Assembly: GCA_041167675.1 (NCBI GenBank)
Contig: JBEEIB010000008.1
Coordinates: forward strand, 2,380 to 66,379
DNA length: 64,000 nt
Reading direction: 5' to 3'
DNA from: Verrucomicrobiota bacterium
Lineage (GTDB): Bacteria > Verrucomicrobiota > Verrucomicrobiia > Chthoniobacterales > JAFAMB01
Each line of letters opens with the position of its first letter. The stretch's first letter is position 1. Under the pieces are notes generated by a model. It ran no database searches. It was given only the letters and a program-made list of their open reading frames with translations, and was not told the origin of the DNA. Made by a program: the position numbers and the translations under genes. Positions 11,085-27,333 of the stretch are shown here, in pieces.

Positions 11085-11146
11085 GTGTTCATACCGTTAG
11101 CGTGTGATTTATGCTTCAAAATAGGACCGTTGTCCAGTCGAGGGAG

Positions 11147-11215
11147 GAGAGCGGTGATTGGTGATAACGCCGAACACTGTGAGCGCGGGCAATGTTGTGA
11201 GAGGTGATTGGTGAT
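11147..11215. repeat. direct repeat GAGA(GC)GGTGATTGGTGAT, two copies 50 nt apart (GGTGATT heptamer doublets)
   Basis: GGTGATTGGTGAT occurs at 11153-11165 and again at 11203-11215, in the divergent region between the HNH and PHP genes. Confidence 0.6.
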
Positions 11216-11386
11216 CAGTACATCAAATAGCGTCCCGCTAGTCGGTGGAGATAGGAAAGCGTTCGGTTTGGCGGTCGGCGTTTTCCGTTCCCGGCGCTCG
11301 CGGCGATGTCGGCGTTCTCGGCGTTTCCTGGAGAGCGAAACAGTCGCCGCTACCGGTTGAGGGCGATTTGTGCACTATTAACCGCA

Positions 11387-23352: not shown

Positions 23353-24471
23353 ATGTGTAATGAGGCCATCTCATTTGCTCCCGGACGGGTCGAGCTACTT
23401 GGCAACCACACTGACTATAATCAGGGCCTCGTGTTATCTGCCGCTATCCATTTGGGCGTGACTGTTCGTGCCAGAAAAGACAGTTCCAACCTAATCACAG
23501 TAAGTTCCGCCACCAACGGACGGCGCGCCGAAATCGATATTTCAAGTATTGCACGGCTTCACACCGAGTCCTGGGCCAACTATCCACTAGGGGTCATTGA
23601 GACGTTGAGACAGACCGGTTTTCCACTGGGCGGAACTACAATTGATATCGATAGCGACCTGCCGTTAGGTGCTGGCCTTTCCAGTTCGGCCGCGTTGGAG
23701 GTTGCTACCGCATTTGCGCTCCGTGAGCTGTATCAACTTCCACTGGATCCGATGCAAATTGCTAAGCTCTGCCAACGGGCTGAAAACGAGTTCGTCGGCG
23801 TGCAGTGTGGACTTCTAGATCAGGCATCTTCGGTATTTGGTCAGGCGGGAAAAGCAATTCTCCTAGATTTCCGTTCCGTAACCGCCGAACCGATTGGGTT
23901 GCCTTCGGAGGTAGCCATTCTGTTGTTAGCTTCCGGAATTCCACATGCACTAACGGGCGGAGAGTACAACGAACGGCGCGAGCAATGCGCTAGAGCTGCA
24001 GCTCTGCTCGGTGTGACTGCACTACGCGAAACGACAACAGCGGCGGTCCAAGCGGCCAAAATGGACCCGGTGGTGCAACGACGCGCGCTCCATATCACGG
24101 GAGAAAACGAGCGGGTCAGTCGAGGAATTAAGGCGCTGCGCCGCGACGATCCGGAGACATTTGGTCAGTTGATGTTCGAATCGCATCGAAGCTCCCGGGA
24201 CAACTTTGAGAACAGCACGCCTGCCTTAGACTGTTTGGTAGAAATAGCCGAGCAGACGTCCGGTGTTTATGGCTCCAGATTAACCGGTGGCGGTTTTGGC
24301 GGATCGACAGTTTCACTGGTCAGTCGTGCGCAAGCCGACCAAATTAAAGAGTCGATGGTTGAGCAATATTTTGAGCGAATGGGCATACGCTCTTCGTCGA
24401 TGCTAACACTCCCATCCCAAGGAGCCGTTATTCTTGCCTCAAGCTCGGATGAGATGACAAATAGCAAATAG
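23353..24471 (+). CDS. galK: galactokinase
   Basis: GRVELLGNHTDYN (galactokinase signature) and GHMP motif PLGAGLSSSAA. ATG 23353 is preferred to the GTG at 23344. The last 5 codons and the stop lie in a heptamer array. Confidence 0.87.
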   Translation: MCNEAISFAPGRVELLGNHTDYNQGLVLSAAIHLGVTVRARKDSSNLITVSSATNGRRAEIDISSIARLHTESWANYPLGVIETLRQTGFPLGGTTIDIDSDLPLGAGLSSSAALEVATAFALRELYQLPLDPMQIAKLCQRAENEFVGVQCGLLDQASSVFGQAGKAILLDFRSVTAEPIGLPSEVAILLLASGIPHALTGGEYNERREQCARAAALLGVTALRETTTAAVQAAKMDPVVQRRALHITGENERVSRGIKALRRDDPETFGQLMFESHRSSRDNFENSTPALDCLVEIAEQTSGVYGSRLTGGGFGGSTVSLVSRAQADQIKESMVEQYFERMGIRSSSMLTLPSQGAVILASSSDEMTNSK

Positions 24472-24487
24472 CGGATAGCAAATTGGA
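24453..24487. repeat. heptamer array GATGACA AATAGCA AATAGCG GATAGCA AATTGGA
   Basis: Five 7-nt units that overlap the galK 3' end (MTNSK*). Confidence 0.75.
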
Positions 24488-24568
24488 GGTTCGGCGGTCC
24501 CGGCGTTTCTATTCGGGTAATAAATTTTACGTTGGGCAACGCTAAATTTGGGTTAGGGTCTCGCAGCG

Positions 24569-25504
24569 ATGGAAAAGAGCGTCACTCCGCGGCTGGCCGA
24601 TATTCTTAAATCGTACGAAAATATCGGCGGCATCAACAATATTGATGGGTCCAATCTGCCCTCAAAACGGGCCGTAGCCCAAATCTGTGACGATCTTCTG
24701 CAAATCCTGTTTCCAGGGTACCACGATGAGGAACCCATTCATTCCGAGCAAGTAGCGCAAATTATTTCTGCTCGCGTTCTGAGCGTTGCCGATCGCATAC
24801 GGATCGAAGCATTTAAAAGCCTGAGAACTCGGGAGCCGCGATGCCCGGAGAAACAAGCCGAAGCCATCACACTTGATCTGATTCGATGCATTCCCAAGAT
24901 TCGTCTGCTTTTACGTACCGATGTAGAAGCGGCATATGAGGGCGATCCGGCAAGTAAGAGTTACGAGGAAATAATCGTTAGCTATCCCTGTGTCGAGGCG
25001 ATCGCCATTCAACGCATCGCACACGCCCTTTATTTAATGGAGCTGCCATTGCTCCCGCGGATTATGACCGAGTGGGCCCATAGCCGGACAGGGATCGATA
25101 TTCATCCGGGCGCCCAAATCGGTGACTATTTCTTTATCGATCACGGAACCGGTGTCGTCATCGGCGAAACCTGCGTTATCGGAGACCACGTAAAGCTCTA
25201 TCACGGGGTTACCCTGGGAGCGCGGAGCTTCCAAAAAGATGATGAGGGCCGAATTAAAAAGGGCGGCAAGCGACATCCAAATGTTGAGGATTGGGTTACG
25301 ATCTATCCAAATTCCACCATTCTGGGAGGAGAGACGACGATCGGAGCTCATACCACAATCGGAGCGAATGTGTTCTTAATGGAAAGCGTTCCGCCAAACT
25401 CTTTGGTCACGAACGAAAAATCGCAGGTCAAGATCGTCTCCAAACGAGATCTAACCGCACAGAGCAATGGAGCGGCGGAGCCGTTGCCGGAATATGAGAT
25501 CTGA
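24569..25504 (+). CDS. cysE: serine O-acetyltransferase (long form)
   Basis: Hexapeptide-repeat core DIHPGAQIGDYFFIDHGTGVVIGETCVIGDHVKLYHGVTLG with a SATase-type N-terminal helical region. Confidence 0.88.
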   Translation: MEKSVTPRLADILKSYENIGGINNIDGSNLPSKRAVAQICDDLLQILFPGYHDEEPIHSEQVAQIISARVLSVADRIRIEAFKSLRTREPRCPEKQAEAITLDLIRCIPKIRLLLRTDVEAAYEGDPASKSYEEIIVSYPCVEAIAIQRIAHALYLMELPLLPRIMTEWAHSRTGIDIHPGAQIGDYFFIDHGTGVVIGETCVIGDHVKLYHGVTLGARSFQKDDEGRIKKGGKRHPNVEDWVTIYPNSTILGGETTIGAHTTIGANVFLMESVPPNSLVTNEKSQVKIVSKRDLTAQSNGAAEPLPEYEI

Positions 25505-25779
25505 TCATTCTCGCCTTAGGCTCGAATGAAATCGCAAATCGCAAATCGCAGATAGCAAATTGGCCGACAGAGCTGTTCAGTGCGTTGGCCCTTTATCCGG
25601 CGCGAGGTATCGATCGAGTGGACCCTCACGAATCATTAGTCCCGGCCCGGTATCGTCGCGAACATCGGGCATCCGTGATCGGTGATAGCGCGCGGAAGCG
25701 CCAGATGGCGAACACAAAAGTCAATCTGCTATCTGCTATTTGCTATCTGTCATTTCATTCGAGCCTAAGGCGAGAATGA
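25505..25779. repeat. 275-bp inverted-repeat (MITE-like) element with heptamer sub-arrays
   Basis: 25505-25532 is the perfect reverse complement of 25752-25779 (28 nt). The arms extend to about 58 nt (24 of 30 further matches) through AATCGCA/GATAGCA arrays. The centre is 159 nt. Confidence 0.75.
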
Positions 25780-25784
25780 CGGCG

Positions 25785-26084
25785 TTAGTACAGCTGCTCC
25801 TCTTCGTGAAGTCCGGAGCCTTCCCGGATCGAGCGGAGGCGACGGCGCACCCCGAGCTTGGATCGAGGACCATTGATCAAGTCAACGACTACGCCGCCGA
25901 CGGCAGGAACAAAGGTGGCAACTGCGACAACCATCAGTCCGAGCGCGACCGTAGCTTGATTCTTTTTGTCTAGCCTACTGCCCAAGAGAATTCCGAATGC
26001 GCAAGCGATTGTTGCCTGAGAAACGCTTAAGAGAGTTGCCGAGGTGAGTGATAAAGTTAGAGTCTTACTGTGCTCGGTCGTCAT
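25785..26084 (-). CDS. small membrane protein (two predicted TM helices)
   Basis: 99 aa with two hydrophobic stretches (ATIACAFGILLG and LGLMVVAVATFVPAVGGVVV). No family recognised. Confidence 0.45.
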   Translation of the reverse strand: MTTEHSKTLTLSLTSATLLSVSQATIACAFGILLGSRLDKKNQATVALGLMVVAVATFVPAVGGVVVDLINGPRSKLGVRRRLRSIREGSGLHEEEQLY

Positions 26085-26271
26085 ACAAAGTGTCGATTAA
26101 TTAGAATGGGCCTTTACATTTTATTAAACGACTCGAATTATCGCTTCGAGCCGGACAATTAATCGGGGATTAATCGTCAACAGTTTTGTTCTCCAGGAGC
26201 ACTCGAGGATGTATATTTGAGAAGATTTCAAACAGGGATACTGAGCCAATAGTTCAGGCGAGTTTTACGCA

Positions 26272-27333
26272 ATGTCGAATTCTTTTTATGCCTTAGTCCT
26301 GGCAGGCGGAAGCGGCACCCGCTTCTGGCCCTTAAGTCGCAAGACTACGCCCAAGCAGCTTCTCCGCTTATTTAACGATAGCACTTTGCTGGAAGAGACG
26401 CTGCTTCGCTTAGAGGGACTCATCCCGCCGGAGAATATTCTGATCTTAACCAACGAGGAACAAGAGCAAGCTGTCCGAGAGCTCCTCAGAAAACATCCGC
26501 CAGAGAACATCTATGCCGAACCAGCCAAACGCGATACCGCGGCAGCAATCGCGTTGGGAGTCGGATTGATCGCTGCCCGCGACTCGGGAGCGACAATGGT
26601 AGTACTTCCCGCGGATCATCTCATCAGAGATCGTTCGGCATTCCAAACCGATTTGCGAGCCGCGGCCAAGGCGGCAGAGCAAAGCGGCGATTTGATCACT
26701 ATCGGAATCAAGCCAACCTGGGCGTGCCCGGGATTCGGTTACATCGAAAAAGGCGTGAAGACTTATGGACCCGCCAACGACTTATTTGAAGTCGTGCGGT
26801 TCCGAGAGAAGCCAGCCGTCGATTTGGCCGAGTCATTTGTTCGCAGCGGTAATTTCTTTTGGAACGCCGGGATTTTTATTTGGACGGTAAAAGCCATTCT
26901 AACCGAGTTAAACCGTCACGCACCCGAACTCGGCGAATTCGTCTCCTGTATTCGCCACTCGGTTGATTTCGGCAAATTATTGAAAAAACGGTTCCCCTCT
27001 TTGCCCAAAATCTCGATCGATTATGCGGTGATGGAGAAAGCCGGACGCGTGCTGGTTAGACCGGCTTCTTTCGACTGGGACGACGTTGGCAGCTGGACAG
27101 CAGTGGCAAAGTATTTCGATCAACTGCCCAATGGCAATACGGCCAACTGCCCAGTTACGTCGGAAAAGTCTGGAAATAACATTGTATTTTCCAAGGACAA
27201 GCTTCAGGTAGCTTTGCTGGGCGTCAGTGATCTGATCGTTGTCCAAACCGAGGACGCTATCCTGGTGTGCAATCGTCACGAAGTAGAAAACGTAAAGAAG
27301 CTGGTGGAGTCACTTCCGGACAAACTCCAATGA
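26272..27333 (+). CDS. mannose-1-phosphate guanylyltransferase
   Basis: 353 aa. N-terminal LVLAGGSGTRFWPLSR nucleotidyltransferase motif and ...GFGYIE... typical of the ManC/CpsB N-terminal domain. Confidence 0.88.
   Translation: MSNSFYALVLAGGSGTRFWPLSRKTTPKQLLRLFNDSTLLEETLLRLEGLIPPENILILTNEEQEQAVRELLRKHPPENIYAEPAKRDTAAAIALGVGLIAARDSGATMVVLPADHLIRDRSAFQTDLRAAAKAAEQSGDLITIGIKPTWACPGFGYIEKGVKTYGPANDLFEVVRFREKPAVDLAESFVRSGNFFWNAGIFIWTVKAILTELNRHAPELGEFVSCIRHSVDFGKLLKKRFPSLPKISIDYAVMEKAGRVLVRPASFDWDDVGSWTAVAKYFDQLPNGNTANCPVTSEKSGNNIVFSKDKLQVALLGVSDLIVVQTEDAILVCNRHEVENVKKLVESLPDKLQ

What the first reader, a model, noticed from the sequence alone, without database searches (positions are those of the whole stretch)
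25505..25779. 275-bp inverted-repeat element wedged exactly between two convergent stop codons
25505-25532 (TCATTCTCGCCTTAGGCTCGAATGAAAT) is the perfect reverse complement of 25752-25779. Complementarity continues for about 30 more nt (24 of 30) through heptamer sub-arrays kept in the same phase. The left end starts at the base after the cysE TGA, and the right end stops 5 nt before the stop of the convergent 99-aa gene. The 159-nt centre has only a 64-aa low-quality ORF, so it is non-autonomous if mobile. I could not identify a target-site duplication. It could be a MITE, a giant bidirectional terminator or RNA stabiliser, or a recombination product of two heptamer-tipped units.
Basis: seen in the sequence. 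Interest (0 to 1): 0.6.

Follow-up and report, generated by a model that had tools for sequence, protein, structure and literature searches.

The report
Hairpin-capped heptamer-armed palindromic repeat element
The 275-bp inverted repeat between cysE and a small convergent gene is an old, full-length copy of a non-coding palindromic repeat family found only in one genus of soil Verrucomicrobia. The family is new, but it is a variant of a familiar kind of bacterial "junk or structural" repeat.

Summary
Arms 25505-25562 and 25722-25779 are 58 nt long and 90% complementary, with the outer 28 nt perfect. They sit flush between the cysE-like stop and the stop of the 99-aa gene.

The element is not single-copy. 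Each end is a 56-nt module: a 25-nt quasi-palindromic cap (TCATTCTCGCC-NNN-GGCTCGAATGA, with a conserved TC/TC mismatch), then A, then about four RATRRCA heptamers. The cap occurs about 30 times in this genome and 5-34 times in its four congeners. It is essentially absent from 146 other genomes of the order. It is often found as inverted pairs around 10-250 bp of non-coding DNA.

The interior of this copy recurs at one unrelated locus (78% identical, caps 50/50 identical). Strains of the same clade carry a deletion series at this junction: 275, about 180, about 118 and 25 bp. All keep the outer half-caps. The perfect palindrome in the closest genome is therefore a scar, not an empty site.

I found no target duplication, no RAYT or parent transposase nearby, no Rfam match, no U-tract terminator and no coding potential.

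Best reading: a REPIN/MITE-like, heptamer-armed hairpin element moved by an unknown enzyme. It probably forms an RNase III-type stem in both convergent transcripts. Interest is moderate.

The parts
25505..25529 (+). Left cap. A 25-nt quasi-palindrome, TCATTCTCGCC-TTA-GGCTCGAATGA, with an outer half 'a' and an inner half 'b'. T7/C8 oppose T18/C19 as mismatches.
   Evidence: In the logo from 84 non-redundant sites, positions 1-11 and 14-25 are at least 95% conserved and the outer edge is sharp.
25530..25562 (+). Left heptamer arm: A, then AATCGCA x3, GATAGCA, AATTG. The family consensus is RATRRCA x4.
25563..25721 (.). Non-coding interior 'X' of 159 nt. Homologues lie at G000 C437:3656-3830 (78%) and in metagenome locus L190 (80%).
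   Evidence: Indels are not multiples of 3. There is no Pfam match and no Rfam match.
25722..25754 (-). Right heptamer arm. Read on the minus strand it is AATGACA GATAGCA AATAGCA GATAGCA GATTG.
25755..25779 (-). Right cap, an exact inverted copy of the left cap. On the plus strand it reads TCATTCGAGCC-TAA-GGCGAGAATGA, with tandem G.A/A.G opposed.
24569..25504 (+). cysE-like hexapeptide acyltransferase. Its TGA abuts the left cap.
   Evidence: Hexapep 1e-9, weak SATase_N; orthologues
25785..26084 (-). Convergent 99-aa gene with hydrophobic stretches and no Pfam family. Its stop lies 5 nt from the right cap.
   Evidence: The gene is conserved in L027-L031.
24428..24485 (+). A second, degenerate solo unit of the same family: cap TTATTCTTGCCTCAAGCTCGGATGA plus heptamers. 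galK reads through it and stops at a heptamer TAG (24469-24471).
   Evidence: Relatives L027 and L028 have a full inverted pair at this galK/cysE junction.

Best explanation
The element is an old, still full-length copy of a genus-restricted family of non-coding palindromic repeat elements in soil Chthoniobacterales.

Anatomy. Each end is one 56-nt module: a 25-nt quasi-palindromic cap followed inward by about four RATRRCA heptamers. The two ends are inverted copies of one another. The centre is a passenger with no coding or known RNA signature.

Spread (inferred). I think the family spreads, or spread, the way REPINs and MITEs do. It would move as a non-autonomous hairpin-forming unit handled in trans by an enzyme I could not identify. 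No target duplication is left behind. Recombination between the conserved ends of different copies would swap interiors.

After arrival (shown). Copies persist only where they fit exactly between coding regions. They decay by internal deletions that keep the outermost half-caps. In the closest relative this ends in a 25-bp perfect palindrome.

RNA level (inferred). Both convergent mRNAs would carry the same 58-bp stem just after their stop codons. That stem would be a likely RNase III substrate or a 3'-end-protecting hairpin, not an intrinsic terminator. Reading inward, the heptamers put TAG or TGA into all three frames.
For: Multicopy and lineage-restricted:
- About 39 cap hits in this genome.
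- Cap counts of 24, 34, 13, 5 and 17 in the five genomes of the genus at 1 mismatch or fewer, against 0 for the reversed-pattern control.
- 0-1 chance-like hits in 146 other genomes of the order.
- More than 120 soil metagenome contigs carry the cap.

Defined module with sharp edges.

The two arms of one element are related as inverted copies:
- Loops are identical in 29 of 43 pairs, against 29% between different elements.
- Arm identity is 0.82 within an element and 0.72 between elements.
- Heptamer changes are compensated on both arms in L190.

The whole element was copied to another locus. The interior is 78% identical to C437, and the caps are 50/50 identical.

Junction polymorphism shows a nested deletion series of 275, about 180, about 118 and 25 bp, all retaining the outer half-caps.

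At other orthologous sites the caps are kept while the heptamer type and interior are exchanged.

Genome-specific loop variants occur: CTA dominates in G001 and TTA/TGA in G000. This fits within-lineage amplification or homogenisation.

Both strands fold into the long stem, dG -138 and -140 kcal/mol, z about -9.

Precedents: inverted heptamer arrays next to ORF ends in Xanthomonas (PMC4692102), and an RNase III-cut stem carrying heptamers in the Coxiella intervening sequence (PMC4990558).
Against: - No movement was seen directly.
- No near-identical copies exist at different loci. The best inter-locus identities are 76-84%.
- 26 interior clusters among 53 elements mostly follow orthologous sites, so whole-element copying is rare or ancient.
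- No target duplication.
- No RAYT or Y1 gene next to a cap in G000, or in the nearly closed genomes G001 and G002.
- The only ORF-bearing pairs hold a truncated IS481-like fragment that is absent from this genome.
- No clean empty site was found. Where one genome lacks the element, it has a short unrelated spacer or another heptamer element.
- Caps are better conserved than neutral drift allows: 0 of 50 differences against 22% in the interior. This could instead mean a host function.
Confidence: 0.6

Rival explanations
1. Host-selected punctuation element. The cap plus heptamers would be a binding site or RNA structure kept by selection at gene boundaries. It could serve as an mRNA 3'-end stabiliser, an RNase III processing site, a read-through barrier, an all-frame stop inbound, or an SD-like GGCGAG plus ATG outbound. 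Copying would be incidental.
For: - Caps are 100% identical between paralogues whose interiors differ by 22%, and between orthologues whose flanks differ by 12%.
- 70 of 82 caps that face a gene's 3' end have the stop within 5 nt upstream of the unit or inside it. Many start codons lie at -4 to +18 nt.
- galK ends in a heptamer TAG.
- The TC/TC mismatch (GA/AG on the other strand) is conserved.
Against: - The element is restricted to one genus and absent from sister genera that have the same genes.
- Its orientation relative to transcription is random: 82 caps face a stop and 72 face a start.
- Many copies decay or are deleted without replacement.
- The same junctions are filled by unrelated heptamer elements in relatives.
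- There is no U-tract terminator.
Confidence: 0.2
2. Two independent solo modules. On this reading the mobile unit is only the 56-nt cap-plus-heptamer module. The 275-bp 'element' would be two such modules that landed at the two ends of an ordinary intergenic spacer.
For: - Solo modules are common: about half of all units.
- Most interiors are locus-specific.
- In G001 one pair has non-complementary heptamer arms.
Against: - The interior travels with the arms to a second locus, C437/L190.
- The same is seen for C23/C277 and C658.
- Rare loop variants (AAA, CAA, CTA, ATA) are shared by the two arms of a pair far above chance.
Confidence: 0.1
3. Site-specific integration into a palindromic attachment site. 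The perfect palindrome of the closest relative (a-TAA-a') would be the empty target, and the window element would be inserted into its loop.
For: L027/L149 carry exactly the left half of the left cap plus the right half of the right cap. The inner and outer half-caps differ consistently, TC versus GA.
Against: - Perfect palindromes are very rare: one each in G004 and G003, against 13-34 caps.
- Intermediate deletion alleles exist at the same junction.
- The loops of the two caps are reverse complements, not the direct repeats expected of a shared crossover region.
- A GTC/GAC variant is shared by both halves of one cap, but not by the two outer halves, in G004.
Confidence: 0.05
4. Invertible DNA switch (inverton). 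The two caps would be recombinase sites and the interior would flip.
For: The size and geometry resemble invertons: inverted repeats around 100-300 bp. A 63-nt segment next to the C437-site element is inverted in G004.
Against: - The interior has the same orientation in all alleles compared: window, L238, L209 and L264 at this junction, and C437 versus L190.
- No promoter-like site lies in the interior.
- The location between two convergent stops gives a switch nothing to drive.
Confidence: 0.03

Closest known systems
REP doublets / REPINs (Bertels & Rainey 2011, PMC3116915; Di Nocera 2013, PMC3733652)
   Same: A short palindromic unit repeated tens of times in extragenic DNA. It is often found as inverted doublets that fold into one long hairpin. 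Doublets are better conserved than their spacers. There is no target duplication, and abundance is lineage-specific.
   Different: There is no GTAG or CGTC tag. No RAYT or TIRYT gene is flanked by the caps (tested in three genomes). Spacers are long (10-250 bp) and mostly unrelated. Heptamer arrays form part of each arm.
MITEs
   Same: Terminal inverted repeats around a short non-coding body. The elements are non-autonomous and show presence/absence and size polymorphism between strains.
   Different: No target-site duplication. No parent insertion sequence with the same ends. The body is usually not shared between copies.
Inverted heptamer arrays of Xanthomonas (GGGAATC) and heptamer repeats of Nostoc/Anabaena (Rehm et al. 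2015, PMC4692102); cyanobacterial STRR (own knowledge)
   Same: Tandem 7-nt repeats are concentrated in intergenic DNA very close to an ORF end. In Xanthomonas they are frequently convergent pairs able to form stem-loops.
   Different: The unit sequence is different (RATRRCA, not G-rich). Here the arrays are tipped by a conserved 25-nt hairpin cap, which gives the family a defined end.
23S rRNA intervening sequences, e.g. Coxiella burnetii (Warrier et al. 2016, PMC4990558)
   Same: A long terminal stem containing tandem heptamers encloses an insert. The stem is cut by RNase III. A transposon origin has been suspected but never shown.
   Different: This element lies between protein-coding genes, not in rRNA. 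It carries no S23p/PF05635 ORF. The PF05635 genes of this genome do sit between inverted heptamer arrays, but without this cap.

Membership tests
MITE | Terminal inverted repeats around a short non-coding body | tested here: met
   58-nt arms, 90% complementary. No coding potential.
MITE | Target-site duplication flanking the element | tested here: not met
   In 43 non-redundant pairs: k=2 gave 7 against 5.7 expected, k=3 gave 0 against 1.5, and k>=4 gave at most 1.
MITE | Autonomous parent element with the same ends encoding a transposase | tested here: not met
   Only two long pairs (about 950 bp) were found. They hold a truncated IS481-like fragment with no homologue in this genome.
MITE | Many copies homologous over the whole length | tested here: inconclusive
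   The interior is shared with one other locus (C437/L190). Overall there are 26 interior clusters among 53 elements.
REP/REPIN | Short repeated extragenic palindrome, mostly as inverted doublets forming a hairpin | tested here: met
REP/REPIN | GTAG (or CGTC) tetranucleotide tag at one end of the palindrome | tested here: not met
   The cap consensus is TCATTCTCGCC..GGCTCGAATGA. The flank shows only a weak CG preference.
REP/REPIN | A RAYT (Y1 HUH transposase) gene flanked by the family's own palindromes | tested here: not met
   7 Y1 loci in G000 and 17 in G001/G002 were checked. None has a cap nearby, either within 2.5 kb or within the fetched loci.
Heptamer-armed hairpin cassette / IVS-like insert | Two inverted arrays of a 7-nt repeat forming the stem around an insert | tested here: met
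Heptamer-armed hairpin cassette / IVS-like insert | PF05635 four-helix-bundle ORF inside | tested here: not met
   No ORF or Pfam hit in the interior. The genome's 11 PF05635 loci have other heptamers and no cap.
Heptamer-armed hairpin cassette / IVS-like insert | Stem cleaved by RNase III in the transcript | not testable with these tools
Intrinsic (rho-independent) terminator | G+C-rich stem-loop followed by a U-tract | tested here: not met
   0 terminator-like sites in 24300-26400. The stem is followed by CGGCG on one side and TCAGA on the other.
Inverton | Interior found in both orientations between fixed inverted repeats | tested here: not met
   The orientation is the same in all homologous alleles compared. 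No read-level test was possible.

The most novel reading that the evidence does not exclude
The cap-plus-heptamer module could be the recognition end of an undescribed recombination system that leaves no target duplication. Such a system would install, exchange and collapse hairpin cassettes exactly at gene boundaries. The same process would carry PF05635 four-helix-bundle genes and would have produced 23S rRNA intervening sequences. The conserved GA/AG-mismatched hairpin would be the single-strand site read by the unknown enzyme.
Probability: 0.15. Interest if true: 0.8.

Novelty: new variant of a known kind. Interest (0 to 1): 0.42.

Why it matters
Tandem heptamer repeats at bacterial gene boundaries have been catalogued since 1990 without an agreed origin or role. 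Examples are cyanobacterial STRR, the Xanthomonas GGGAATC repeats and the stems of rRNA intervening sequences.

This family adds a conserved, asymmetric 25-nt hairpin at the tip of the heptamer arms. It has tens of copies per genome and a clear genus boundary. One junction shows a natural allele series from the full element down to a palindromic scar.

That makes it a tractable case for three questions. Which enzyme or host factor reads such ends? Are the elements selfish or used by the host? Do their stems shape mRNA 3' ends?

In practice, these elements alter the C-termini of annotated genes (galK ends inside one). They also mark sites of gene gain, loss and small inversions between strains.

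Tried and rejected
- Rfam scan of 24300-26400 at E<=1: no match.
- Promoter and terminator scan: nothing in the element.
- Coding potential: the 64-aa ORF has no Pfam hit, and indels in the homologues break the frame.
- RAYT/Y1 link: rejected.
- Link to PF05635 cassettes: they are in the same genome and also have heptamer arms, but none carries this cap.
- IS481-like fragment inside two long pairs: absent from this genome, probably a secondary insertion.
- Cargo next to solo units: the neighbours are ordinary housekeeping genes such as EF-Ts, Sir2, SOD and a sigma factor, judged by eye from the translations.
- Target duplication: none.
- 'Empty site' reading of the L027 palindrome: rejected in favour of a deletion scar, because intermediate alleles exist.
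- Inverton: no orientation variants found.
- Shared structure in the interior: three sequences give only one or two compensated pairs, which is too few to call.

Full report
**Observation**

The repeat finder reports arms 25505-25562 and 25722-25779, 58 nt long, 90% complementary and 159 nt apart. The 28-nt terminus occurs exactly twice in the window, once per strand, with 0 expected in shuffles. The cysE-like ORF ends at 25504. The convergent 99-aa ORF has its stop at 25785-25787, so the element fills the gap apart from 5 nt. Pfam supports a hexapeptide acyltransferase with a weak serine-acetyltransferase N-domain for the upstream gene. It finds nothing for the 99-aa protein or the internal 64-aa ORF.

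**Anatomy**

Each 25-nt terminus is itself a quasi-palindrome, TCATTC-TC-GCC-TTA-GGC-TC-GAATGA. Its two halves (outer 'a', inner 'b') pair except at two positions. On the other strand these positions are a tandem G.A/A.G.

I built a logo from 84 non-redundant sites, drawn from this genome, a congener and soil metagenomes.
- The outer edge is sharp.
- Cap positions 1-11 and 14-25 are at least 95% conserved, and the loop is variable. Part of this sample was found by exact cap match, which inflates the conservation.
- The cap is followed by an A and four RATRRCA heptamers, then unrelated sequence.
- Positions 4-5 of the heptamer are almost always AG or GA. AA and GG are about five-fold rarer than independence predicts.

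**Copy number and range**

- BLAST of the element against its own 7.0-Mb assembly gave 86 matches, nearly all to the arms, plus one full-length relative at C437:3609-3879.
- A mismatch-tolerant scan found 39 caps. Nine inverted pairs have the hairpin outermost and the heptamers inward. The rest are solos, some cut by contig ends.
- The five genomes of the genus hold 24, 34, 13, 5 and 17 caps at one mismatch or fewer. The reversed-pattern control gave 0.
- 146 other genomes of the order, including sister genera of the same family, hold none or one chance-like hit at two mismatches.
- The organism is a Chthoniobacterales (Verrucomicrobiota) soil MAG, judged from the record titles of its closest relatives.

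**Are the pairs real units?**

I compared 43 non-redundant pairs, 64-335 bp long.
- The two arms of one element are more alike than arms of different elements: 0.82 against 0.72 overall, and 0.72 against 0.58 in the heptamer part.
- Their loops are identical as inverted copies in 29 of 43 pairs, against a between-element frequency of 0.29.
- Rare loops (AAA, CAA, CTA, ATA) are shared within pairs.
- No target-site duplication exceeds chance.

**The interior travels, but rarely**

The window interior is 78% identical to that of C437, which lies in an unrelated gene context. It is 80% identical to the interior of metagenome locus L190, which is the orthologue of the C437 site. All six caps are identical. 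L190 has AATAGCC heptamers on both arms where C437 has AATAGCA, so the changes are compensated.

Two further inter-locus interior families exist: C23/C277 and C658/C645. Overall, however, 53 elements fall into 26 interior clusters that mostly follow orthologous sites. Indels among the three X copies are not multiples of three, so X is non-coding. Rfam finds nothing.

**The junction in relatives**

This was the most informative comparison. Soil strains and congeners carry a graded series at the cysE/99-aa junction.
- The same 275-bp element sits in a near-identical strain (L238).
- Elements of about 180 bp, with a shortened X and AATGACA heptamers, occur in L209 and L264.
- Elements of about 118 bp have lost the right heptamers and the inner half-cap (L146, L165).
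- A 25-bp perfect palindrome, TCATTCTCGCC-TAA-GGCGAGAATGA, remains in L027/L149, which is the closest genome, G004.
- L028 has a degenerate 29-mer.
- More distant relatives have different heptamer-armed palindromes (AACGCCG type) or their collapsed remains (L029, L030, L180).

Every allele of the first group keeps the outer half-cap 'a' directly after the cysE stop. Each also keeps 'a-prime' about 5-8 nt before the other stop. I first read the L027 palindrome as an empty target with the element inserted in its loop. The intermediate alleles argue that it is instead the end point of internal deletion. So does the rarity of perfect palindromes (one each in G004 and G003). So does the fact that the two loops are reverse complements rather than direct repeats. 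A GCCT microhomology between the two caps gives exactly the observed joint.

**Other orthologous sites**

I fetched twenty cap-bearing regions of G004 and mapped their flanks onto this genome.
- Most sites are occupied in both genomes, with caps about 93% identical and flanks about 86% identical.
- Heptamer type and interior are often non-homologous: C277 against G004 C12, and the C437 site against G004 C218.
- Two sites filled in G004 hold only 23-32 nt of unrelated spacer here.
- Several sites hold a different heptamer element instead.
- No clean empty site was found.
- A desaturase-like gene in this genome is bracketed by two inverted copies of a 250-bp element, where G004 has one element and no gene.
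- A 63-nt segment that includes a start codon is inverted beside the C437-site element in G004.

These elements are therefore joints of small rearrangements.

**Placement**

Of 82 caps that face a gene's 3' end, 70 have the stop codon within 5 nt upstream of the unit or inside it. The internal stops are the loop TAG, the terminal TGA or a heptamer TAG/TGA. Of 72 caps that face a gene's 5' end, many have the first start codon at -4 to +18 nt. The -4 position is the ATG of GAATGA. Orientation relative to transcription is about even. galK in this window reads through a degenerate solo unit and stops at a heptamer TAG.

**What moves it?**

This is unknown.
- Seven Y1 (IS200/RAYT-type) genes in this genome have no cap nearby.
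- Seventeen more in two nearly closed congeners also have none.
- The genome's PF05635 four-helix-bundle genes sit between inverted heptamer arrays of other types and lack the cap.
- The two long pairs in metagenomes contain a truncated IS481-like fragment that is absent here.
- Genes next to solo units look like ordinary housekeeping genes.

**RNA level**

Both strands fold into the long stem, at -138 and -140 kcal/mol with z about -9. There is no U-tract terminator and no promoter-like site in the element. That inference rests on analogy with the RNase III-cut, heptamer-bearing stem of the Coxiella intervening sequence (PMC4990558).

**Verdict**

The finding is real and is not a local oddity. 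It is one copy of an undescribed, genus-restricted family of hairpin-capped, heptamer-armed palindromic elements. The family works most like REPINs or MITEs and like the inverted heptamer arrays of Xanthomonas (PMC4692102). It fails the defining tests of each: no GTAG tag, no RAYT, no target duplication and no parent element.

Two things stay unexplained. First, the caps are kept far better than the interiors. Second, different elements replace one another at the same gene junctions. Both fit either continuing end-directed recombination or a host use of the cap, and I cannot separate these with the tools available.

Noticed in passing
window 24428-24485: A degenerate solo unit of the same family forms the last 16 codons of galK, which stops at a heptamer TAG. 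Relatives L027 and L028 have complete inverted pairs at this galK/cysE junction, with interiors unrelated to each other.
   Followed up: partly
window about 11142-11372: This gap holds a CGGCGTT-type repeat element (TRF array at 11275-11325). The orthologous site in G004 (C490:23424-23643) holds a 220-bp TCATTC-capped pair. One kind of heptamer element has replaced another at a fixed site.
   Followed up: partly
G000 C658:8631-9986 (loci L003, L012, L013): A gene of about 285 aa with histidine-box motifs resembling fatty-acid hydroxylases/desaturases (judged by eye, not scanned) is bracketed by two 250-bp elements. The elements are 84% identical in inverted orientation. G004 has a single element and no gene at this site.
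   Followed up: partly
G000 C437:3539-3601 versus L132:1573-1635: A 63-nt segment is inverted between the two genomes, next to the element. It carries the 5' leader and the first 9 codons of a small ORF, so the ORF continues into different sequence in each genome. In G004 the heptamer array is flanked by a direct repeat of the inner half-cap GGCTCGAATGA.
   Followed up: partly
G000 C95, C423, C261, C579, C524, C269, C47, C555, C74 (L114-L122): Nine PF05635 (23S rRNA IVS-protein / four-helix-bundle) genes are each preceded by an A+T-rich promoter-like stretch. Most are bracketed by inverted heptamer or longer tandem arrays, of a different unit at each locus.
   Followed up: partly
L031:4950-5045: In a more distant relative the same cysE junction holds a palindromic element with GTTGTAGGGCG...CGCCCTACAAC arms. 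This GTAG-containing head resembles classical REPs and the GGTAGGG-headed family noted earlier in this genome.
   Followed up: no
L018:1075-1197 (G001 C2 about 1.569 Mb): A 123-bp capped pair has AATAGCA-type heptamers on the left arm and AATGCGG-type on the right, so the arms are not complementary. Five of the 17 caps of this closed genome cluster within 1.50-1.57 Mb.
   Followed up: no
G004 C148:5080-5104 (L142:1581-1605): This is a perfect palindrome of the inner type (b'-TTA-b, TCATTCGAGCCTTAGGCTCGAATGC) without heptamers. This genome has a normal a-L-b unit with heptamers at the same site. The origin is unexplained; quasi-palindrome correction by template switching is one possibility.
   Followed up: no
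L199:1023-2012 and L205:2061-3001: Two soil contigs carry pairs of about 950 bp that enclose a truncated IS481-like transposase fragment (HTH plus the start of the DDE core).
   Followed up: yes
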